Shown here in pieces: positions 14,804 through 63,766 of a stretch of 64,000 nucleotides of DNA. The translations under genes were made by a program, and so were the position numbers. Every line of letters begins with the position of its first letter. The first letter of the stretch is position 1. The notes beneath the pieces are model-generated. The model had not been told where the DNA came from. It worked only from the letters and a program-made list of their open reading frames with translations, and did no database searches. The DNA comes from Candidatus Liptonbacteria bacterium (GTDB taxonomy: Bacteria > Patescibacteriota > Minisyncoccia > UBA6257 > 2-01-FULL-56-20): assembly GCA_016204335.1 (NCBI GenBank), contig JACQKU010000014.1, positions 4,988 through 68,987 on the forward strand, written 5' to 3'.

Positions 14804-15922
14804 ATGAGGTTATACGAATTCGAAGGCAAGCGGCTTTTTGAGAAATACGGCATTCCGGTGCCGAAGAGCGTGTTGCTGGAAAAATCCGGAAAAGTTTCCG
14901 GCATTAAGTTGCCGGTCGTACTTAAAGCCCAGGTTTTGTCCGGTGAACGGAAAAGCGCGGGCGGTATTCTTTTCCCGAAAAATAAATCGGAACTTTCACA
15001 CGGGCTCAAAAAACTTTTCGCGGCGCATATCCGCGGCGAACCCGTTCAAAAAATTTTAGTTGAGGGGCGTATCTCGGCTTCGCGCGAATATTATCTTTCG
15101 TTGAGTTACGACACCGACACGCGCGGTCCGGTTTTGGCTTTTTCTTCCCGCGGCGGCTCGCGCATAGCCATCGCGCTGAAGGCGAATGTCGCGCCGCTCG
15201 ATATTCTTCTCGGCGCAAAACCGTTTTTAATCCGCGAAGCGCTGTCAAAAGGAAAAGTTCCGTCCGAAGATATCAACGGCCTCGCGAAGGTCATTATAAA
15301 TTTATGGAAGCTTTTTGTTTCCGAATACGCGCTCGTCGCCGAAATCAATCCGTTGTTTCGGACTCCGAGCGGAGAATTTATCGCGGGAGACGCGAAAGTC
15401 ATTCTTGACGACGAAAAATTGAACCCCGGCGAGCGGAGATTCATCGAACTCGGCGGCGACATCGCGATTTTGGCGTCCGGCGGCGGCGCGTCGCTTTTGA
15501 ACATTGACGCGCTTCTCCAGTATAAAGGGAAGCCCGCGAATTACACCGAATACTCCGGCAACCCTCCGGCTGACGTGGTAAAAGCGCTAACACAGCGCGT
15601 GCTCGGCAGGCCCGGGCTCAAAGGCGCGTGGGTAATCGGCGGCACCGCGAATTTCACGGACATTTACGAAACACTGAAAGGATTTATCGAAGGACTCCGG
15701 CAGGTAAAACCGAAACCGGCATATCCGATTGTTATCCGGCGCGACGGCCCCAATCAGGAAAAAGCGTTCGCGATGCTCCGCGAAGTAGCCAAAAAAGAGG
15801 GGTACGACTTCCACCTTTTTAATTCGAAAACCTCGATGGCGGAGTCGGCGAAATTGATGGTGAAATATGCGTACCATGATAAAATCAAAATTCAAACTGC
15901 AAATATCAAAATGAAAGAGTAA
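14804..15922 (+). CDS. succinyl-CoA synthetase beta / ATP-citrate lyase small-subunit-like ATP-grasp protein
   Basis: MRLYEFEGKRLFEKYGIPVP (SucC N-terminus), LVAEINPL, GGGASLL. The ORF-track start 14747 is probably an overcall. TATAAT at 14791-14796 precedes the ATG at 14804. Confidence 0.75.
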   Translation: MRLYEFEGKRLFEKYGIPVPKSVLLEKSGKVSGIKLPVVLKAQVLSGERKSAGGILFPKNKSELSHGLKKLFAAHIRGEPVQKILVEGRISASREYYLSLSYDTDTRGPVLAFSSRGGSRIAIALKANVAPLDILLGAKPFLIREALSKGKVPSEDINGLAKVIINLWKLFVSEYALVAEINPLFRTPSGEFIAGDAKVILDDEKLNPGERRFIELGGDIAILASGGGASLLNIDALLQYKGKPANYTEYSGNPPADVVKALTQRVLGRPGLKGAWVIGGTANFTDIYETLKGFIEGLRQVKPKPAYPIVIRRDGPNQEKAFAMLREVAKKEGYDFHLFNSKTSMAESAKLMVKYAYHDKIKIQTANIKMKE

Positions 15923-16001
15923 AATGCAAAAAGCCTTTAACAATTCTTTTTTAATTTCTTCTTTTTCATTTTGCATTTTGAGATTTGATTTTTGAATTTT
16001 C
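15881..16001 (+). repeat. MITE-like long hairpin family 1 (AAAATCAAAATTCAAACTGCAAA..ATGCAAAAA / TTTTTCATTTTGCATTTTGAGATTTGATTTTTGAATTTT), copy 1
   Basis: ~40-bp inverted arms; left arm encodes the last residues and stop of the upstream gene; right arm ends 2 nt before the sucD-like ATG; near-identical copy at 59735-59857. Confidence 0.8.
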
Positions 16002-16002
16002 C

Positions 16003-16914
16003 ATGAGCATTTTAGTCGACAAAAAAACGCGCGTTTTGATTCAGGGCATCACCGGGCATGAGGGCGCGCGGGCGTGCAACGAGATGCTTTCGTACGGGAC
16101 AAAAGTGCTCGCGGGCGTGACGCCGGGAAAAGGCGGACAGAAAATATCCGGCGTGCCTGTGTATGACACTGTGCGTCAGGCGCTCGCAAAACACCGGAGT
16201 ATAAACACCTCGCTCATCGCTGTTCCCGCGGCGGCGGTCAAAGACGCGGCAATGGAAGCGATATTCGCGGGAATTCCGTTAGTGAATATTCTCGCCGAGC
16301 ACGTGCCGACTTTGGATTGCGCGGAGATTGTCGCGCGGGCTCGCGCGAAAGGCACGATACTCGTCGGCCCTTCATCTGTCGGCGTGATTTCTCCAAAAGA
16401 GAAAGTGAAAATCGGAAGCATCGGGAGTTCGCTCGTTCGAAATGTGTTCACGCCCGGTTCGGTCGGCGTTGTTTCAAAAAGCGGAGGAATGACCGCGGAA
16501 ATCGCGGTGACGCTCACGAACGCAGGCATAGGCCAGAGCACGGTGCTCGGCATCGGCGGCGACCAAATTATCGGATTCGATTTCGTGGACGCGCTCAAAT
16601 TGTTTGGGAAGGATCCGGAAACGAAAGCAGTGATACTGTTCGGTGAAGTTGGCGGCACATACGAAGAGCAGGCGGCGGAGTTTATCCGAAAAGAAAAATT
16701 CAAGAAGCCGGTTGTCGCGGTGGTGGCGGGAAAATTTACCGCGCGCCTTCCGCAAGGCACCGTGTTGGGACATGCCGGCGCGATTGTCGCGAAAGGAAAA
16801 GGCGGATACGATTCGAAAGTGCGGGCTTTCAAAAAAGCGGGCGTGCCGGTTGCGGCTACTCTTGATGAAATTCCGTGGTTGCTTCGGCAGCTACTTCGTG
16901 GAAGAATGAAGTAA
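16003..16914 (+). CDS. succinyl-CoA synthetase alpha-like CoA-binding subunit
   Basis: MSILVDKKTRVLIQGITGHEGA, phosphohistidine loop GHAGAIV, 303 aa. Confidence 0.85.
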   Translation: MSILVDKKTRVLIQGITGHEGARACNEMLSYGTKVLAGVTPGKGGQKISGVPVYDTVRQALAKHRSINTSLIAVPAAAVKDAAMEAIFAGIPLVNILAEHVPTLDCAEIVARARAKGTILVGPSSVGVISPKEKVKIGSIGSSLVRNVFTPGSVGVVSKSGGMTAEIAVTLTNAGIGQSTVLGIGGDQIIGFDFVDALKLFGKDPETKAVILFGEVGGTYEEQAAEFIRKEKFKKPVVAVVAGKFTARLPQGTVLGHAGAIVAKGKGGYDSKVRAFKKAGVPVAATLDEIPWLLRQLLRGRMK

Positions 16915-38983: not shown

Positions 38984-40347
38984 AACATTACAAGAATATC
39001 CTCCGGTATCAGATTCAGCCGAGAGAACGCATTACCACGTCATTCTGGGTTAAGCGGCCGGGCGCGGAGATGATAATGGAGGAAAAAGATTTTTCGTTCG
39101 ATTACAAAGGCGCGTTTTCAAAAGAACTCTTCGTTGACGCATACGAGCGGCTCTTGCTTGATGCCATTTCAGGCAATCAAACGCTTTTTGTAAGCACCGA
39201 AGAAATCGCGGCAAGCTGGAAATTTATCGACCCGATTTCAAGAGCGTGGAAGAAAAATTCCGCATCACTTCTTTCGTACGCAAAAAAAACACTCCCCATT
39301 TCCGAAGAACTGGATGGTTCGGGCTTGTCCCGAAAAGAAATCGGTTTGATAGGTCTTGGAAAAATGGGGAAAAATATGGCGCTCCGGCTCTTGGAAAAAA
39401 GATGGAATGTGATTGCGTACGATGTAAGCCCGGAAGCACGCCAGGAAATTATCTTGAAAGGCGGGGTTGCCACAAATAGTATTCCTGAACTGGTTGGACA
39501 GTTGGAATTACCCCGAACAATTTGGTTAATGGTACCTGCGGGCAAAATTCTCGACGAAGTAATTTTCGGCACTTCGGCAAAGCTCAGTGCCGACCCTGAG
39601 CAGCGTCGAAGGGTCGGTTCGAACGGCCTCGCCGCGCTTCTTGCAAAAGGCGACATGATAATAGACGGCGGCAATTCGCTTTACGAGGATTCAATCAGGC
39701 GCGCGAAAAAGTTGAAAAAATTCGGCATCAGTTTTCTCGACGCCGGTGTCTCGGGAGGTCCCGGAGGGGCGAGGAACGGCGCGTGCCTGATGGTGGGCGG
39801 AGAGAAATCGGCGTACGACAAGCGCGAAGATTTATTCCGCGACCTCGCGGTTTCGGACGGATATGAGTATGTCGGAAAAGCGGGAGCCGGCCATTTCGTG
39901 AAAATGATTCATAACGGCATCGAGTACGGAATGATGCAGGCGATTGCGGAAGGCTTCGATGTGCTTCGCACCGCGGACTTACGCGGACTGAACCCTTCGA
40001 CACGGCTCAGGGCAAGCGCGGACAAACGCGGAAAATTGAAATATAAATTTAACCTCAAGAAAATAGCCGGCATTTATAATCGTGGGAGCGTGATTGAATC
40101 GCGGCTCGTCGGCTGGCTCAAGAACGCGTTTGAGGAATACGGCGAAAACCTCGAAAGAATTTCGGGCTCTGTCGGCCATACCGGAGAAGGGGAATGGACG
40201 GTCAAAACCGCGAAAAAACTCGGCGTGCCCGCCAAGGTAATCGAAGACGCGTTCAAATTCCGCGTGCAGTCCGCGAAAAAACCGAGTTATGTTGGAAAAA
40301 TTCTCTCGGCATTGCGAAATCAGTTCGGAGGACATAAGGCAAAGTAA
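38941..40347 (+). CDS. gnd: G6PD C-terminal segment fused in-frame to 6-phosphogluconate dehydrogenase (short Gnd type)
   Basis: ILRYQIQPRE..FVDAYERLLLDAISGNQTLFV (G6PD C-terminus) runs without a stop into IGLIGLGKMGKNMALRL Rossmann start of 6PGDH and GAGHFVKMIHNGIEYG. Confidence 0.75.
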   Translation: MSVSRRGTRDKGQVKHYKNILRYQIQPRERITTSFWVKRPGAEMIMEEKDFSFDYKGAFSKELFVDAYERLLLDAISGNQTLFVSTEEIAASWKFIDPISRAWKKNSASLLSYAKKTLPISEELDGSGLSRKEIGLIGLGKMGKNMALRLLEKRWNVIAYDVSPEARQEIILKGGVATNSIPELVGQLELPRTIWLMVPAGKILDEVIFGTSAKLSADPEQRRRVGSNGLAALLAKGDMIIDGGNSLYEDSIRRAKKLKKFGISFLDAGVSGGPGGARNGACLMVGGEKSAYDKREDLFRDLAVSDGYEYVGKAGAGHFVKMIHNGIEYGMMQAIAEGFDVLRTADLRGLNPSTRLRASADKRGKLKYKFNLKKIAGIYNRGSVIESRLVGWLKNAFEEYGENLERISGSVGHTGEGEWTVKTAKKLGVPAKVIEDAFKFRVQSAKKPSYVGKILSALRNQFGGHKAK

Positions 40348-46294: not shown

Positions 46295-46538
46295 CCCATC
46301 CCAGTAATCGGGAACCGTAGCGCGACAAGGGCAAGTCGCGCAAGGACCGGTTCTCAAGAGGGGTCGTAGCAGGAAAGAGTTAGTTCAACTCAATCCAGCC
46401 GCGACCCTTGTTGTATTTTTAGGGAGTTTTATTTTTTTAAGTATCGAACATCGCGGTCGATTTTTTGTTTCATGGCGGGATAGTATAGTAATGATAGCAA
46501 TAATGACTGCGAGGGCAGAGTATTGTATTATCAAAAGT

Positions 46539-47573
46539 ATGAAATTATCCATCGGAATCGTCGGTTTGCCTAACGTCGGCAAGTCCACGCTTTTTAAAAT
46601 TCTCACCAGGCAGGAGGTGCATATCGCGAATTATCCATTCGCGACCATTGACCCGAACGTGGGCGTCGTTGAGGTTCCGGACGAACGGCTCGAAAAACTT
46701 TCCACGATGTCGAAGTCGAAAAAGATTATTCCGGCAGTCGTGGAGTTTTACGATATCGCTGGACTGGTAAAAGGCGCGAATACGGGCGAAGGGCTTGGCA
46801 ATCAGTTCCTCGCGCACATCCGTGAAACGCAGGCGATAGTTGTCGTTATCAGATTATTCGGCAATTCGGAAATCGTGCATGTCGAGGGAACGGTTGACGC
46901 GGCGCGCGATTTGGAAATCATCAATACCGAACTTATTTTGAGAGATTTGGAAACAGTGGAAAAGTGCATTCCAAAAGCCGAGTCGGAAGCTCGAACCGGA
47001 AGTAAAGAAGCGGCGCAATTTTTATCCGTTTTGCGCGAAGCAAAATCGGCGCTTGAAAAAGGCGACCTTTTGTCATTAGAAAAACATTCTCATATTCTGC
47101 AGAATGTTGGAATGTCGGGACTAAGTTTATTAACCGCAAAAAAGCAACTCTATCTTTTGAATGGAACAGAGGAAGACGCAAACGAGGCGCTAATAGGAAA
47201 AATAAAATCGCTCGGCGCGGATTATCTCGCTATGGACCTTGCTTCGGCGACCGAGATATCCGGCCTCATCAAAAAGTCATACGAAATTCTCGACCTCATC
47301 AGTTTTCTGACCACCGGCGAGGACGAGACGCGCGCGTGGACAATCAAAAAGGGAACGAAAGCCCCCGAAGCGGCCGGCGTGATTCATACGGATTTCGAGA
47401 AAAAATTCATCCGCGCGGAAGTTGTTAACTGGCAAAAATTACTCGAAGCCGCCCATTCGGCAGGCTCAGGGCAAGGTGGCTGGGTTCAGGCAAAGCAGAA
47501 AGGGTTAATCCGGCTGGAAGGGAAAGATTATGTAGTCCAGGACGGGGACGTAGTGGTAATCAGGCACGGGTGA
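46539..47573 (+). CDS. ychF: ribosome-binding ATPase YchF
   Basis: MKLSIGIVGLPNVGKSTLF, TGS C-terminus ..GKDYVVQDGDVVVIRHG; contains a degenerate copy of the arsR-flanking palindrome at ~47085-47115. Confidence 0.9.
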   Translation: MKLSIGIVGLPNVGKSTLFKILTRQEVHIANYPFATIDPNVGVVEVPDERLEKLSTMSKSKKIIPAVVEFYDIAGLVKGANTGEGLGNQFLAHIRETQAIVVVIRLFGNSEIVHVEGTVDAARDLEIINTELILRDLETVEKCIPKAESEARTGSKEAAQFLSVLREAKSALEKGDLLSLEKHSHILQNVGMSGLSLLTAKKQLYLLNGTEEDANEALIGKIKSLGADYLAMDLASATEISGLIKKSYEILDLISFLTTGEDETRAWTIKKGTKAPEAAGVIHTDFEKKFIRAEVVNWQKLLEAAHSAGSGQGGWVQAKQKGLIRLEGKDYVVQDGDVVVIRHG

Positions 47574-47701
47574 TTTTAACTATTCCTTAACCTACGACCT
47601 CTTCTCCGGCGCGCTTCCAACGTTTCATCATCCGCAAACTCTATCTCGCCGCCGGTGTGAAGGCCGCGGTCGAGGCGGATTATAAATGGTAGAATTGAAA
47701 A

Positions 47702-48457
47702 ATGGCCCGTATGGATTCAGGTAGGGGGATAGTGTTGGTTGGCGTACTTAAAAGAAAACGCGACCTCACGATTCTCCTGCGTGAGCGCTGGTATCGTATT
47801 CCTCGCGCATGGTTTCCGAAAAGGAAATTTCAATATCTCGCGTTTTATCAACCTGCTTTGTTCGGCCGGCAAGGGAAGCGGATTCAGTATTATGCGCGCG
47901 TGATGCGTTGCGAGACACATAAGCGGCGCGGATTGTTGCCGCGCGAATCCGTGCATCCGAACGCCGACGCGGAGTATGCGCAGATCCATGTCGCCGATAT
48001 CAAAAAACTGCCAAAAGCGATTATAAATCGTCGGCCGGGACAGCCACGACGCGTGTCTTTCGGCTTCACCACGTTCACGTGTTTGAAAACGGCGAGAAAT
48101 ATTTTGGAATTATACCGCGTCGCGCCGACCGAGGAGATGATGGGAAAGGCGCTTGTGGAATCCGGCATTCGGGCGATTCCGCAGCACTATGTTTCGAGCG
48201 GCTTGAAGCGAAGGAAAAAACTATATTGTCTTGATTTTGCGATATTGTGCAAATGGGGCGCGATCGCGATCGAGTGCGACAATCGAAAAGCTCATGTCGG
48301 GGCGCGACAGCGCGCAAAGGACGGGACGAAAGACGCTTTTTTGCGCCGGCGCGGCTGGACCGTGGTCCGGCTTAAGGAAGAAGAAATCGTGCTTCGCCTC
48401 GAGGATTGCATTACTCACATACGTAAAACAATCCAAGCCCTCGGCGGCCAATCCTAA
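47702..48457 (+). CDS. DUF559 (Vsr-like PD-(D/E)xK) domain protein with unknown N-terminal domain
   Basis: C-terminal LDFAILCKWGAIAIECDNRKAH..RRRGWTVVRL. Confidence 0.5.
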   Translation: MARMDSGRGIVLVGVLKRKRDLTILLRERWYRIPRAWFPKRKFQYLAFYQPALFGRQGKRIQYYARVMRCETHKRRGLLPRESVHPNADAEYAQIHVADIKKLPKAIINRRPGQPRRVSFGFTTFTCLKTARNILELYRVAPTEEMMGKALVESGIRAIPQHYVSSGLKRRKKLYCLDFAILCKWGAIAIECDNRKAHVGARQRAKDGTKDAFLRRRGWTVVRLKEEEIVLRLEDCITHIRKTIQALGGQS

Positions 48458-48499
48458 TTACAACATTCTGATATTCTGCAGAATATTAGAATGTTGTAA
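48456..48499 (+). promoter_or_regulatory. palindromic operator-like site TTACAACATTCTGATATTCTGCAGAATATTAGAATGTTGTAA upstream of arsR
   Basis: Near-perfect 36-44-bp palindrome; second copy at 48789-48824 overlapping the arsR stop. Confidence 0.5.
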
Positions 48500-48532
48500 T
48501 GTGATATACTTACTTACGATACAATCGATACA

Positions 48533-48799
48533 ATGAAAACCTCAAAGCAACTTGAACGGTATTTTAAGGGTGCGGCCAATCATTGGCGTATTTCCGTTTT
48601 GTTTCTTATTGAGAAAAACGAAGGAATTACTGTTCAGGGAATTACTTCAGCACTCGGCGGAAATTTCAAAACTATCTCCCAACATACGCGAGCATTGGTG
48701 CAGGCTGGCCTTTTGAATAAAAAGTATCGCGGCCAGGAAGTTATGCATTCGCTCTCTCCTTATGGAAAATCATTCGTCCGTTTCATGAAAACATTCTAA
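48533..48799 (+). CDS. ArsR/SmtB family winged-helix transcriptional regulator
   Basis: ISVLFLIEKNEGITVQGITSALGGNFKTISQHTRALVQAGLL. Confidence 0.6.
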   Translation: MKTSKQLERYFKGAANHWRISVLFLIEKNEGITVQGITSALGGNFKTISQHTRALVQAGLLNKKYRGQEVMHSLSPYGKSFVRFMKTF

Positions 48800-48824
48800 T
48801 ATTCTGCAGAATATCAGAATGTTT
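48789..48824 (+). promoter_or_regulatory. second copy of palindrome AAACATTCTAATATTCTGCAGAATATCAGAATGTTT
   Basis: See 48456-48499. Confidence 0.5.
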
Positions 48825-48856
48825 TATGTAAAGTGGCTTTTAGTTTAAGGATTTTT

Positions 48857-49537
48857 CTAATTCCGCTTCTCAAGCGCGGCGCCTAAAGTGTCGTCGTCGG
48901 CGAATTCAATTTCGCCTCCAGTGGGGAGGCCGCGGCCGAGACGAGTAATTTTTTTCGCGAGCGGTTTCAGTTCCTTTTCGACAAGCGAAGAATTAAAATC
49001 GCCGTGACTTGTAGGATTGAATCCCAAGATGATTTCTTCCGCCTGCCCTGAGCCCGGTTGAAGGGCTTGCCCTGCTACGGCACCTGTCGAATGAGTCGTA
49101 TCCGGCGTATTTGACGTGTGTGTCGAATTTTTCGAATTGGCGATGAAATTTTTAAGATTTTGCAACCGGAGTTTTTGTCGGTCATCAAGAATGCCGGTTT
49201 TGGAAATCGCGCCCATAATGAAATACCGGCCGTTGAACCGAGACGTATTTTCAATTGAAAGGAGGTCGGTTTCTTTTTCGACAATCATTATTATGTCCTG
49301 CCTGCGCGCCGGGCTCCGGCAAATGTCGCAGAGCGTGTCCGGATTCTGGTGAATGAAGAAACACCGCTCGCATATTTTTATTTTTTTAAGTTCGTCGATG
49401 TTTTGCGAGAGGTTTTGGATGTTGTTCGAGCCAAGGCCAATGAGATAAAAAACAAGCCGGATAGCTTGTCTCGGTCCGATGGAAGGCAGTTCTGCAAGCG
49501 CGTCAACGAGCGCGCGGATGGAATCTGGCAGTTTCAT
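48857..49537 (-). CDS. recR: recombination protein RecR (with ~40-aa low-complexity insertion)
   Basis: HhH N-terminus, C4 zinc finger CERC..CDIC, Toprim; insert NSTHTSNTPDTTHSTGAVAG.. Confidence 0.85.
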   Translation of the reverse strand: MKLPDSIRALVDALAELPSIGPRQAIRLVFYLIGLGSNNIQNLSQNIDELKKIKICERCFFIHQNPDTLCDICRSPARRQDIIMIVEKETDLLSIENTSRFNGRYFIMGAISKTGILDDRQKLRLQNLKNFIANSKNSTHTSNTPDTTHSTGAVAGQALQPGSGQAEEIILGFNPTSHGDFNSSLVEKELKPLAKKITRLGRGLPTGGEIEFADDDTLGAALEKRN

Positions 49538-52919: not shown

Positions 52920-52949
52920 CCGGCCGCTATGCTATAGCATAGCGGCCGG
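52920..52949 (+). repeat. 30-bp perfect palindrome CCGGCCGCTATGCTATAGCATAGCGGCCGG
   Basis: Core GCTATGCTATAGCATAGC shared with 53044-53079 and 57643-57666. Confidence 0.8.
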
Positions 52950-53043
52950 AAATGTCGGAGCGAGAGGCAGGTTTCATAGATTTTTTCAGCAACGGAAACC
53001 GGTGTCTTTTTTGGAGAAGCTTTCGCAAGTCCAACCGGCTTGG

Positions 53044-53079
53044 CCTTCTGCCGCTATGCTATAGCATAGCGGCAGAAGG
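53044..53079 (+). repeat. 36-bp perfect palindrome CCTTCTGCCGCTATGCTATAGCATAGCGGCAGAAGG
   Basis: Same core, 125 bp from the previous copy. Confidence 0.8.
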
Positions 53080-53127
53080 CATTTTACTGCCAGTAATACT
53101 TATACAAACGGGGACCTCACGCGAAGT

Positions 53128-59036: not shown

Positions 59037-59735
59037 ATGAATAACGAAGCAGGCAATCTTGAAAATCTCGAAACCGTCATCGGCTTCAATTTCAAAAATA
59101 AAGATTTTCTCAAAGAGGCGCTGACGCACCGGTCGTATTTGAACGAAAATCCCGGCTGGCCGTTTTCCCACAACGAGCGTCTGGAATATCTCGGCGACGC
59201 GGTGCTTGAGCTTGTGGTGAGCGAAGCGCTTTTCAAAAAATTTCCCAAAGCGCCCGAGGGGCAGATGACAGTGCTTCGCGCCGCGCTCGTGAATTACCAA
59301 ATGCTCGGCAGCGTTGCCGCGGCTCTCCGCCTTGACGATTTTATTTTTATGTCGCGGGGGGAGCGCGCTGACACCTCAAAAGCGCGGGAAGTGATTCTCG
59401 CGAACGCCATTGAGTCGCTCATCGGCGCGATTTATCTTGATGCCGGACTTGAAGCCGTAGAGGGGTTTGTCGAACGATTTATTTTCACGCGTCTTCCGGA
59501 AATCCTCGAAACCAAAAGCTATAAGGACTCCAAAAGCGAACTTCAGGAAATAATCCAGGAAAAACTGAAAATAACGCCGACCTACGGAGTTCTTGGAGAA
59601 AGCGGGCCGGCGCACCAGCGGACATTCCGCATAGGGGTTTATTTCGGGAATGAATTGATTGCCGAAGGCGCGGGCGCTTCTAAGCAGGAAGCCGAAGTCG
59701 AAGCGGCGAAAAAAGCGCTGGAGAAGCGTAAATAA
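59037..59735 (+). CDS. rnc: ribonuclease III
   Basis: HRSYLNENPGWPFSHNERLEYLGDAVLELVVSEALF signature and C-terminal dsRBD. Confidence 0.9.
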   Translation: MNNEAGNLENLETVIGFNFKNKDFLKEALTHRSYLNENPGWPFSHNERLEYLGDAVLELVVSEALFKKFPKAPEGQMTVLRAALVNYQMLGSVAAALRLDDFIFMSRGERADTSKAREVILANAIESLIGAIYLDAGLEAVEGFVERFIFTRLPEILETKSYKDSKSELQEIIQEKLKITPTYGVLGESGPAHQRTFRIGVYFGNELIAEGAGASKQEAEVEAAKKALEKRK

Positions 59736-59857
59736 AATCAAAATTCAAACTGCAAACATCAAAATGAAAATGTAAAATGCAAAAAACCCTTAAAAATTCT
59801 TTTTTAATTTTTTCTTTTTCATTTTGCATTTTGAGATTTGATTTTTGAATTTTCCAT
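59735..59857 (+). repeat. MITE family 1 copy 4 (near-identical to 15881-16001)
   Basis: AAAATCAAAATTCAAACTGCAAACATCAAAATGAAAATGTAAAATGCAAAAAA .. TTTTTCATTTTGCATTTTGAGATTTGATTTTTGAATTTT, ending 2 nt before the smc ATG. Confidence 0.8.
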
Positions 59858-63726: not shown

Positions 63727-63766
63727 TGAAAAAAACAGCGCCGTGCTATAGCACGGCGCTGTTTTT
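63727..63766. terminator. bidirectional Rho-independent terminator AAAAACAGCGCCGTGC-TATA-GCACGGCGCTGTTTTT
   Basis: 11-bp GC stem, 4-nt loop, A5 upstream and T5 downstream. Confidence 0.75.

What the first reader, a model, noticed from the sequence alone, without database searches (positions are those of the whole stretch)
47082..48826. ArsR-family regulator bracketed by two copies of a 36-bp palindrome, with a third degenerate copy inside ychF
CAACATTCTGATATTCTGCAGAATATTAGAATGTTG (48461-48496) and AAACATTCTAATATTCTGCAGAATATCAGAATGTTT (48789-48824) flank the 88-aa ArsR-type gene; the second overlaps its stop codon. A related copy (CATTCTCATATTCTGCAGAATGTTGGAATG) lies in-frame inside ychF at ~47085, about 1.4 kb upstream. 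This looks like an autoregulated metalloregulator with dual operators, and possibly a mobile regulator cassette. The upstream DUF559 fusion gene may be the regulated cargo.
Basis: partly seen in the sequence, partly recalled or inferred. Interest (0 to 1): 0.5.

Follow-up and report, generated by a model that had tools for sequence, protein, structure and literature searches.

The report
Small regulator bracketed by its palindromes
A tiny DNA-binding protein of uncultivated Parcubacteria sits between two copies of a 36-40 bp near-perfect palindrome that it almost certainly recognises. This pairing is conserved across the group, and extra copies of the palindrome lie at gene borders and in frame inside housekeeping genes such as ychF.

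Summary
The window holds exactly three copies of one palindrome: inside ychF, 37 nt upstream of an 88-aa winged-helix gene, and over that gene's stop codon. None is expected by chance.

The protein has an ArsR/SmtB fold but no metal ligands. The module "palindrome, gene, palindrome" is ancient: both copies are present in 60 of 74 related Parcubacteria loci. The upstream copy usually supplies the -35 box (TTGGAA) of a leaderless-type promoter. The downstream copy contains the stop codon in 64 of 72 loci.

The palindrome's central dinucleotide covaries with residues 44, 47 and 54 of the helix-turn-helix. Paralogues sharing a genome are each bracketed by their own palindrome class. So a specific protein-DNA pair with autorepression is well supported, though binding is inferred.

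About 70% of copies lie away from the gene, roughly 4-5 per genome. They sit at gene borders or in frame inside ychF, mnmA, tsaD, prmC, hsdS and others. Their arms are more symmetric than protein binding alone explains, and they lack the promoter arrangement. They behave like a low-copy REP/RPE-like palindromic element.

"Metalloregulator" is not supported. "DUF559 cargo" is only a statistical neighbourhood. I found no published description.

The parts
46536..47573 (+). ychF (ribosome-associated ATPase). It hosts the in-frame palindrome copy.
   Evidence: Pfam YchF-GTPase_C 1.6e-33 and MMR_HSR1 2e-20. MKLSIGIVG is the start shared with orthologues.
47084..47115 (.). Palindrome copy 3, in frame in ychF (core 47085-47114). 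It is translated as K-H-S-H-I-L-Q-N-V-G-M.
   Evidence: Weight-matrix score 52.9 bits. The same position is occupied in YchF of L144 and L170. Among 121 YchF sequences, 9 carry an intact motif, 74 a longer form (many visibly degraded) and 38 a short form.
47702..48457 (+). Fusion of a PUA-like (EVE/ASCH/YTH-like) N-domain with a Vsr-like DUF559/MTES_1575 nuclease. It is a recurrent neighbour of the module.
48457..48500 (.). Upstream palindrome (core 48461-48496). It is the presumed operator and starts 3 nt after the DUF559 stop codon.
   Evidence: 55.0 bits. Present upstream in 67 of 74 loci. RNA hairpin -25.6 kcal/mol, z -9.
48502..48525 (+). Candidate core promoter: extended -10-like TGaTATACT (48502-48510), and TACAAT (48520-48525) 7 nt before the ATG.
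   Evidence: Read. In the family, 47 of 70 loci have a -10-like hexamer, with modes at +31/32 from the palindrome centre and 6-9 nt before the ATG. The window deviates from the modal spacing, and the generic scan did not call a promoter here.
48533..48799 (+). 88-aa ArsR/SmtB-fold winged-helix protein. It has no Cys and no known metal site.
   Evidence: Pfam HTH_5 23.2 bits against a cut-off of 22. PDB profile hits HlyU 2.4e-5 and CadC. AlphaFold2 pLDDT 92.3 with H-H-H-H-E-E-H topology. Foldseek CadC, HlyU and CzrA TM 0.85-0.89. 931 homologues; the listed best 120 are 71-83% identical.
48788..48825 (.). Downstream palindrome (core 48789-48824). It encodes the C-terminal K-T-F and the stop codon. 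The gene beyond it is convergent recR.
   Evidence: 54.1 bits. Present in 72 of 80 loci, with the stop codon inside it in 64. RNA hairpin about -20 kcal/mol on either strand.
48857..49537 (-). recR, convergent with the winged-helix gene. It marks the edge of the module and is not part of it.
   Evidence: Pfam RecR_HhH, RecR_C and Toprim_4. No recR lies next to the module in other loci.

Best explanation
The locus is the home copy of a two-part system conserved across Parcubacteria. One part is a small, non-metal ArsR/SmtB-fold protein. The other is its cognate palindrome, built as (AACATTCY)x2 - NN - (RGAATGTT)x2.

How it most likely works (all inferred):
- The protein binds the palindrome as one or two dimers. 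The central dinucleotide acts as a specificity determinant read by residues 44, 47 and 54.
- The upstream copy overlaps the gene's own core promoter. In most relatives its right arm is the -35 box, so binding gives negative autoregulation.
- The downstream copy, which contains the stop codon, folds into a stable hairpin that ends the transcript ahead of convergent recR. As DNA it offers a second binding site.

The remaining copies, including the one in ychF, arose by an insertion or copying process like that of REP or Rickettsia palindromic elements. Most are probably relics or simple protein-bound punctuation, not promoters.

Shown here: the sequence facts, the conservation, the covariation, the fold, and the in-frame insertions. 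Not shown: binding, repression, termination, and the insertion mechanism.
For: 1. Three copies in 64 kb against 0 expected.
2. In 80 genome loci from many Parcubacteria lineages, the upstream copy is present in 67 of 74, the downstream copy in 72 of 80, both in 60 of 74, and the stop codon is inside the downstream copy in 64.
3. Covariation:
   - GC centre goes with N44/T47 in 81 of 81 loci, and mostly S/A54.
   - AT centre goes with D44 (6 of 9), N47 (7 of 9) and R54 (6 of 9).
   - TA/TG/CA centre goes with R54 (14 of 16), often with E50.
   Other copies in a locus mostly share the centre type of the local gene.
4. Paralogues each carry their own palindrome class on both sides. L035 has two paralogues in one locus. 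More distant paralogues in L088, L201 and L237 carry further classes (L237 seen upstream only).
5. Promoter logic. Upstream copies prefer TTCCAA..TTGGAA. TTGGAA lies 17 nt from a TATAAT-like hexamer at +31/32, which is 6-9 nt from the ATG. 46 of 70 gene-side flanks have a -10-like hexamer, against 26 of 68 on the far side and 413 of 2000 at random positions.
6. ArsR/SmtB fold.
7. Insertion behaviour. In-frame copies sit in ychF, mnmA (three positions), tsaD, prmC (two), hsdS, tspO, alr, a His-kinase and a PurN-like gene. The YchF series runs from intact through degraded to absent.
Against: - No binding or expression data exist for any member.
- The window's own promoter does not have the modal spacing, and the generic promoter scan did not call it.
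- Arm-to-arm symmetry at freely variable positions is far above independence: pair 10 in dispersed copies is 0.92 observed against 0.51 expected. A dimeric repressor does not require this, so hairpin formation or copy-paste origin also matters.
- Dispersed copies show no -10 box at the operator spacing. Their neighbouring genes are functionally mixed.
- The covariation classes are partly clades, so the number of independent changes is small.
- The hairpins are AU-rich, lack a clear U-tract, and were not called as terminators.
Confidence: 0.6

Rival explanations
1. REPIN-RAYT-like system with a non-catalytic protein. The palindromes are a vertically inherited, low-copy mobile element. The bracketed winged-helix protein is the element's own factor, needed to propagate, homogenise or protect the copies, perhaps with a nearby PIF1 helicase or Vsr-like nuclease. 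It would not primarily be a transcription factor.
For: - The gene is bracketed by its repeat, and each paralogue by its own class. From my own knowledge, this is how RAYT genes relate to REPs.
- 113 of 163 sampled copies lie away from the gene.
- Copies are inserted in frame in many unrelated genes, including several positions within mnmA.
- Rare variants are shared by all copies and both arms within a locus, as in L066 and L108.
- Arm symmetry exceeds what binding needs.
- Gene context is not conserved.
- PIF1 helicase (8 of 81 loci) and the Vsr-like nuclease fusion (6 of 81; 3 of 6 in the reverse test) are enriched nearby.
Against: - The 88-aa protein has a plain ArsR fold with no HUH motif or other nuclease or recombinase signature.
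- Copy number is about 5 per genome, and 3 in this 64 kb.
- No target-site duplication of 3 nt or more.
- No recombinase or transposase recurs next to copies.
- Most loci have neither PIF1 nor the nuclease.
- The protein is about as conserved as YchF, which fits a host function.
Confidence: 0.15
2. One reading: a metal-sensing ArsR repressor with two operators that controls the upstream DUF559 gene as cargo.
For: - ArsR/SmtB fold with a palindrome at the promoter.
- The DUF559 fusion is a significantly enriched neighbour.
- In L043 and L236 a palindrome lies directly at its 5' end.
Against: - No Cys anywhere, and no alpha3N or alpha5 ligand set. Below the NCBIfam metalloregulator cut-off.
- 75 of 81 loci lack the DUF559 gene within three genes.
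- In the window the palindrome follows the DUF559 stop codon, and the 128-nt region upstream of DUF559 has no site.
- The fusion looks like a modification-dependent nuclease, not a metal-resistance gene.
Confidence: 0.05
3. A purely RNA-level element. The palindromes are terminators, RNase III sites or mRNA-stabilising hairpins, and the winged-helix gene merely lies between two of them.
For: - Stable hairpins of -25.6 and about -20 kcal/mol.
- Arm symmetry is maintained at free positions.
- Copies lie next to gene ends, with convergent contexts 21 against divergent 13.
Against: - Sequence, not just pairing, is conserved across the group.
- The centre covaries with helix-turn-helix residues, and co-resident paralogues keep separate classes.
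- The upstream copy lies upstream of the -10 box, so it is not in the gene's own transcript.
- No U-tract and no Rfam family.
Confidence: 0.05
4. Chromosome-structuring sites such as ParB/parS or B. subtilis RTP/Ter. A few conserved sites per genome, tolerated inside genes, are bound by a small autoregulated winged-helix protein whose gene lies beside its sites.
For: - Low copy number, and copies occur inside genes.
- Roughly ten-fold enrichment of extra copies within 4 kb of the gene: 43 in about 0.5 Mb of flanks, against about 4-5 per genome.
- From my own knowledge, the rtp gene is autoregulated through an adjacent Ter site.
Against: - GC skew does not change sign anywhere in the window.
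- The sites are symmetric, whereas fork barriers are polar.
- The ychF copy decays in most lineages.
- Sites are scattered in unrelated contexts.
Confidence: 0.05

Closest known systems
Non-metal ArsR/SmtB-family autorepressors (HlyU, PagR, NolR, SdpR type)
   Same: Same fold (TM 0.85-0.89). Small dimeric winged-helix protein. Palindromic site at its own promoter. Conserved SQH motif in the recognition helix.
   Different: - Only 88 aa.
- The site is a 36-40 bp palindrome made of tandem octamers, not a 12-2-12 repeat.
- A second copy always overlaps the stop codon.
- Further copies lie inside genes.
- The family-specific NCBIfam cut-off is not reached.
REP/REPIN-RAYT systems (own knowledge)
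   Same: A single-copy gene is bracketed by the palindromic repeat it is associated with. Each paralogue has its own repeat class. The system is inherited long-term, and dispersed copies lie at gene ends.
   Different: The protein is not a HUH/Y1 transposase. There are about 5 copies per genome, not tens to hundreds. Copies also occur in frame inside genes.
Rickettsia palindromic elements (RPE; PMC10969869)
   Same: Palindromic repeats are inserted in frame into unrelated housekeeping genes and translated as a conserved peptide. Copies then decay in place.
   Different: 36-40 bp rather than about 150 bp. Different phylum. Here a dedicated, covarying DNA-binding protein is linked to the repeat.
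HrcA/CIRCE (own knowledge)
   Same: A winged-helix repressor paired with an unusually conserved perfect inverted repeat that acts both as DNA operator and as an mRNA hairpin.
   Different: CIRCE marks a coherent chaperone regulon at promoters. Here the dispersed copies show no promoter arrangement and no common function.
Restriction-modification controller (C) proteins and C-boxes (own knowledge)
   Same: A small autoregulated HTH protein with a palindromic box, sometimes next to a nuclease gene. Here that gene is a PUA-like/Vsr-like fusion.
   Different: C proteins are Xre-type HTH, not ArsR-fold. Most loci here have no nuclease neighbour.

Membership tests
ArsR/SmtB family | alpha1-alpha2-alpha3-alphaR-beta1-beta2-alpha5 winged-helix fold | tested here: met
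   AlphaFold2 pLDDT 92.3, elements H4-14, H17-28, H34-41, H45-57, E61-66, E69-74, H76-87. Foldseek CadC, HlyU, CzrA and ArsR with probability 1.00 and TM 0.85-0.89.
ArsR/SmtB family | Sequence-profile membership | tested here: inconclusive
   Pfam HTH_5 scores 23.2 against a cut-off of 22, which passes. NCBIfam HTH_metalloreg scores 39.3 against 55, which fails. PDB profile hit to HlyU at 2.4e-5.
ArsR/SmtB metalloregulators | Metal or metalloid ligand set (alpha3/alpha3N Cys motif, or alpha5 Asp/His/Glu site) | tested here: not met
   No Cys in the protein. Alpha5 reads PYGKSFVRFMKTF, with no D, E or H. The invariant residues include no such set.
ArsR/SmtB family | Binds an inverted repeat overlapping its own promoter (autorepression) | not testable with these tools
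   The sequence arrangement fits and covariation supports recognition. Binding itself is not shown.
REP/REPIN-RAYT | Gene flanked by copies of the palindromic repeat family | tested here: met
   Both flanking copies are present in 60 of 74 loci. Paralogues carry their own classes.
REP/REPIN-RAYT | The flanked gene encodes a HUH/Y1 (IS200/IS605-like) transposase | tested here: not met
   Only HTH families match in Pfam and NCBIfam, and the fold is ArsR. No His-hydrophobic-His motif is present in the sequence.
REP/REPIN-RAYT | Tens to hundreds of extragenic copies per genome | tested here: not met
   Three copies in 64 kb. The ratio of 113 other copies to 50 gene-linked copies implies about 4-5 extra copies per gene.
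MITE | Target-site duplication and a related autonomous element with a transposase | tested here: not met
   No flank duplication of 3 nt or more above control. No transposase among recurrent neighbours.
Rickettsia palindromic elements | Palindromic repeat inserted in frame in protein-coding genes | tested here: met
   Found in ychF, mnmA, tsaD, prmC, hsdS, tspO, alr and others. Size and taxon differ, so this is an analogue and not a member.
Integron attC cassette array | Adjacent tyrosine integrase (IntI) and promoterless cassettes each ending in a structured site | tested here: not met
   L022 looks like an array of genes separated by palindromes. No integrase is among the neighbours, and the sites are conserved in sequence rather than in structure only.
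Intrinsic terminator | G+C-rich stem followed by a U-tract | tested here: not met
   The palindromes were not called by the terminator scan. Stems are A+U-rich and the 3' flank is only partly T-rich.
Known RNA families (Rfam 15) | Match at gathering score | tested here: not met
   Only sub-threshold chance matches to miRNA hairpin models.

The most novel reading that the evidence does not exclude
A REPIN-RAYT-like partnership in which the protein partner is an ArsR-fold DNA binder with no nuclease signature, not a transposase. The winged-helix protein would specify which 36-40 bp palindrome is copied, homogenised or protected in the genome. Host or neighbouring enzymes, such as the PIF1 helicase or the PUA-Vsr nuclease, would do the chemistry. 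The in-frame peptides in YchF, MnmA, TsaD and PrmC would be its footprints.
Probability: 0.17. Interest if true: 0.85.

Novelty: new variant of a known kind. Interest (0 to 1): 0.62.

Why it matters
- Almost nothing is known about gene regulation in Parcubacteria and the wider candidate phyla radiation. This may be one of their most conserved protein-DNA pairs. The protein is about as conserved as YchF, and the specificity code is readable: residues 44, 47 and 54 against the central dinucleotide.
- The pair is directly testable in vitro and could be reused as a set of orthogonal repressor-operator pairs.
- In-frame palindromic "selfish DNA" in housekeeping genes, a phenomenon best known from Rickettsia, also occurs in this group. 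Here it is tied to a dedicated binding protein.
- That link raises the question of how such short palindromes spread without a transposase.
- A practical point: the repeat can join unrelated genes in assemblies, as in the mnmA-tsaD chimera in L199.

Tried and rejected
- **Viral origin.** The 26-nt pattern has 0 hits in IMG/VR. All 33 hits to the 16-base core were chance matches with no full palindrome. Only one diverged paralogue sits on a "viral" contig.
- **Origin or terminus location.** GC skew stays positive across the window.
- **Target-site duplications.** None of 3 nt or more.
- **Dispersed copies as promoters or operators.** No -10 enrichment at +31/32, whether the copy is of the TTGGAA or the TTAGAA type.
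- **Helical phasing of the two flanking copies.** Spacing ranges from 302 to 400 bp, mostly 314-320, with no clear phasing by eye.
- **Orientation rule.** The exact inverted relation of the two window copies is not general: 16 loci are more similar direct and 13 inverted.
- **Assembly breaks at the palindrome.** 9 sites lie near locus ends against about 6 expected, which is not significant.
- **Known RNA family.** None.
- **Known defence system.** No PADLOC system matched, only generic domains.
- **Coherent regulon.** Neighbours are mixed. The argG-argH site recurs only among close relatives with 84-94% identical ArgG.
- **L067 and L069.** These are identical over 8,264 bp, so the pair gives no extra locus.
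- **Literature.** Five searches found no description of this palindrome or family.
Full report
**Observation**

The three copies exist where stated. The 30-mer core matches 48464-48493 exactly. It matches 48792-48821 exactly on the opposite strand, and 47085-47114 with three mismatches. Shuffles of the window gave no match. The 12-mer ATTCTGCAGAAT occurs three times against 0.22 expected.

The inverted repeats extend to 48457-48500 (23-nt arms), 48788-48825 (19-nt arms) and 47084-47115. The downstream copy contains the stop codon at 48797-48799. The upstream copy begins 3 nt after the stop of the preceding DUF559 gene. The ychF copy is in frame and reads EKHSHILQNVGMS.

I built a 40-column weight matrix from 164 family sites. 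It scores the three copies at 52.9, 55.0 and 54.1 bits out of a possible 65.7. Nothing else in the 64 kb reaches 12 bits. By family standards the ychF copy is therefore a full site, not a degenerate one.

**The protein**

The 88-aa product passes Pfam HTH_5 marginally, 23.2 against 22. It stays below the NCBIfam metalloregulator cut-off, 39.3 against 55. A profile of 30 homologues finds HlyU, CadC and ArsR chains in the PDB at 2e-5 to 6e-3.

The AlphaFold2 model (pLDDT 92.3) has the five-helix, two-strand ArsR topology. It superposes on CadC, HlyU, CzrA, ArsR and PagR at TM 0.85-0.89. There is no cysteine, and the last helix (PYGKSFVRFMKTF) has no Asp, Glu or His. Neither known type of metal site is present.

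The exact protein is annotated from a Candidatus Liptonbacteria genome assembled from a metagenome, on an 87-kb contig. There are 931 homologues. The listed best 120 are 71-83% identical and come from Liptonbacteria, Jorgensenbacteria, Sungbacteria, Giovannonibacteria, Wolfebacteria and others. That is about the same conservation as YchF itself.

**The module is ancient**

I fetched 80 genome loci.
- The upstream copy is present in 67 of 74 loci with enough flank.
- The downstream copy is present in 72 of 80.
- Both are present in 60 of 74.
- The stop codon lies inside the downstream copy in 64.

The consensus is (AACATTCY)x2-NN-(RGAATGTT)x2. Some sites have a third octamer.

Upstream copies prefer TTCCAA...TTGGAA. 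In the modal arrangement TTGGAA lies 17 nt from a TATAAT-like hexamer, which starts at +31/32 from the palindrome centre and ends 6-9 nt before the ATG. That is a leaderless-type promoter whose -35 box is inside the palindrome. A -10-like hexamer is present on 46 of 70 gene-side flanks, against 26 of 68 on the far side and 413 of 2000 at random positions.

Downstream copies prefer TTCTAA...TTAGAA, where TAA is the stop codon. In both cases the unconstrained arm follows by symmetry.

The window's own promoter deviates from the modal spacing. The candidates are TGaTATACT at 48502-48510, and TACAAT at 48520-48525, 7 nt before the ATG. The generic scan did not call either.

**Evidence that the protein recognises the palindrome**

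The central dinucleotide varies (GC, AT, TA, TG, CA) and usually agrees between the two flanking copies. It covaries with the helix-turn-helix:
- A GC centre goes with N44 and T47 in 81 of 81 loci, and mostly with S or A at 54.
- An AT centre goes with D44 (6 of 9), N47 (7 of 9) and R54 (6 of 9).
- A TA, TG or CA centre goes with R54 (14 of 16), often with E50.

Other copies in the same locus mostly share the local class.

The strongest evidence is that paralogues keep separate classes.
- L035 has one gene (S54) bracketed by GC-centre copies and a second (E50, R54) bracketed by TG-centre copies.
- More distant paralogues are associated with other palindromes of the same design:
  - L088: ATTCYAATGTTCTTAAGAACATTRGAAT.
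  - L201: AACATCCTTACAAACTTGAGAATGTAAGGATGT.
  - L237: CTATTCAAGTATTTTGCAAAATACTTGAATAG, upstream only.

A neighbour-joining tree shows the classes are partly clades, so the number of independent switches is small. Binding remains an inference.

**The other copies**

Of 163 sites, 50 flank a winged-helix gene and 113 do not. That implies roughly 4-5 extra copies per gene. None was found in viral contigs.

Extra copies are about ten-fold enriched within 4 kb of the gene. Most are intergenic, and some abut or overlap stop codons. They sit between co-directional (59), convergent (21) or divergent (13) genes.

They do not show the promoter arrangement of the upstream copy. Their neighbours are functionally mixed: PIF1 helicase, NYN, TspO, YafQ-like toxin, RhuM/Fic, argG|argH and others.

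About one in eight lies in frame inside a real gene. Nearly all read as K-H-S-N-I-L-Q-N-V-G/R-M. The genes are:
- ychF, at the same position in the window, L144 and L170;
- mnmA, at three different positions in proteins only 37-50% identical;
- tsaD, prmC (twice, once in another frame), hsdS, tspO, alr, a histidine kinase and a PurN-like gene.

Among 121 YchF sequences, 9 carry the intact peptide. Seventy-four have a longer segment at the same place, many of them visibly degraded versions such as TSLIRANKRI. Thirty-eight have a short E. coli-like segment. The window's YchF groups with short-form relatives in a noisy tree. This looks like an insertion or replacement that decays in place. It is the pattern described for Rickettsia palindromic elements.

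**Why binding alone is not enough**

At positions where both C and T are acceptable, the two arms agree far more often than independent half-sites would:
- pair 10 in dispersed copies: 0.92 observed against 0.51 expected;
- pair 15: 0.86-0.88 against 0.63-0.73;
- pair 18: 0.49-0.67 against 0.31-0.41.

Rare variants are also shared by all copies and both arms within a locus, as in L066 and L108. So either hairpin formation is selected, or the copies derive from one another. The RNA hairpins are -25.6 and about -20 kcal/mol. I found no target-site duplication, and no transposase or recombinase among the recurrent neighbours.

**The DUF559 gene**

It lies within three genes of the winged-helix gene in 6 of 81 loci. 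In the reverse test, 3 of 6 loci chosen through the DUF559 fusion have a family winged-helix gene within about 1.1 kb. That is well above chance. However, the order of the two genes varies, and so does the palindrome's position relative to the nuclease gene. In the window the nuclease's own upstream region has no site. The association is real. Regulation is not shown.

**Context and mobility of the module**

Three hundred and ninety-nine neighbouring proteins fall into 338 clusters. The 83%-identical homologue sits between corC and rarA, not between DUF559 and recR. This fits either a mobile module or the generally poor synteny of these genomes. I could not tell which.

**Verdict**

The best-supported reading is a specific, autoregulated ArsR-fold protein and palindrome pair, whose palindrome also behaves as a low-copy, insertion-capable repeat. 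The metal-sensor reading is rejected. A REPIN-RAYT-like role for the protein is not excluded. Five literature searches found no description of this pair.

Noticed in passing
window 52920-52949, 53043-53080, 63731-63766: Three perfect palindromes of 30-38 bp share a GCTATAGC centre (CCGGCCGCTATGCTATAGCATAGCGGCCGG, GCCTTCTGCCGCTATGCTATAGCATAGCGGCAGAAGGC, AAAAACAGCGCCGTGCTATAGCACGGCGCTGTTTTT). They may be a second palindrome family in this genome.
   Followed up: partly
window 15875-16005 and 59734-59852: Two copies of an A/T-rich imperfect inverted repeat of about 120-130 bp (AAAATCAAAATTCAAACTGCAAA...). It is a dispersed repeat of unknown nature.
   Followed up: no
window 40004-40016 (+), 47463-47475 (+, in ychF), 49042-49054 (-, in recR): The G+C-rich 13-mer GGCTCAGGGCARG occurs 3 times against 0.09 expected. 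In ychF it codes a GSGQG segment within AAHSAGSGQGGW, and it also lies inside the recR coding region. This may be a second kind of short repeat carried in frame in housekeeping genes.
   Followed up: partly
L009 4293-4314, L022 1559-1580, L035 4521-4542, L039 2500-2521, L040 4296-4317: A different palindrome, AATACGCCA-N6-TGGCGTATT, lies 4-5 nt from the main palindrome in several related genomes. The arrangement resembles mosaic REP/BIME clusters. It is absent from the window.
   Followed up: partly
L199 317-2059: One open reading frame joins the N-terminal part of mnmA to the C-terminal part of tsaD, exactly at a palindrome copy. It is either an assembly chimera at the repeat or a real rearrangement.
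   Followed up: no
L074, L100, L117, L127, L199 (mnmA): mnmA carries or abuts a palindrome copy in five very divergent lineages (37-50% identical proteins), at four or more positions. A rough calculation suggests this is more than random insertion would give. I have no explanation.
   Followed up: partly
L022 1135-4290: Six genes or small ORFs in a row are each separated by a palindrome copy: a TM-wHTH protein, a small ORF, NYN, a 331-aa CGKDDCxICG protein, the winged-helix gene and TspO. It looks like a cassette array, but no integrase is nearby.
   Followed up: partly
80 genome loci, upstream of the winged-helix gene: The -10-like hexamer usually ends only 6-9 nt before the ATG. This suggests leaderless transcripts for this gene across Parcubacteria.
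   Followed up: partly
window 47702-48457: The 'DUF559 fusion' is a conserved Parcubacteria family with 378 homologues. It joins a PUA-like (EVE/ASCH/YTH-like) domain to a Vsr/I-Bth0305I-like nuclease domain, an architecture typical of modification-dependent nucleases.
   Followed up: yes
window 48857-49537 (recR): RecR is 226 aa. Its Toprim match spans residues 82-198 for an 85-position profile, so it holds a low-complexity insert of roughly 30-35 aa (NSKNSTHTSNTPDTTHSTGAVAGQALQPGSGQAEE).
   Followed up: no
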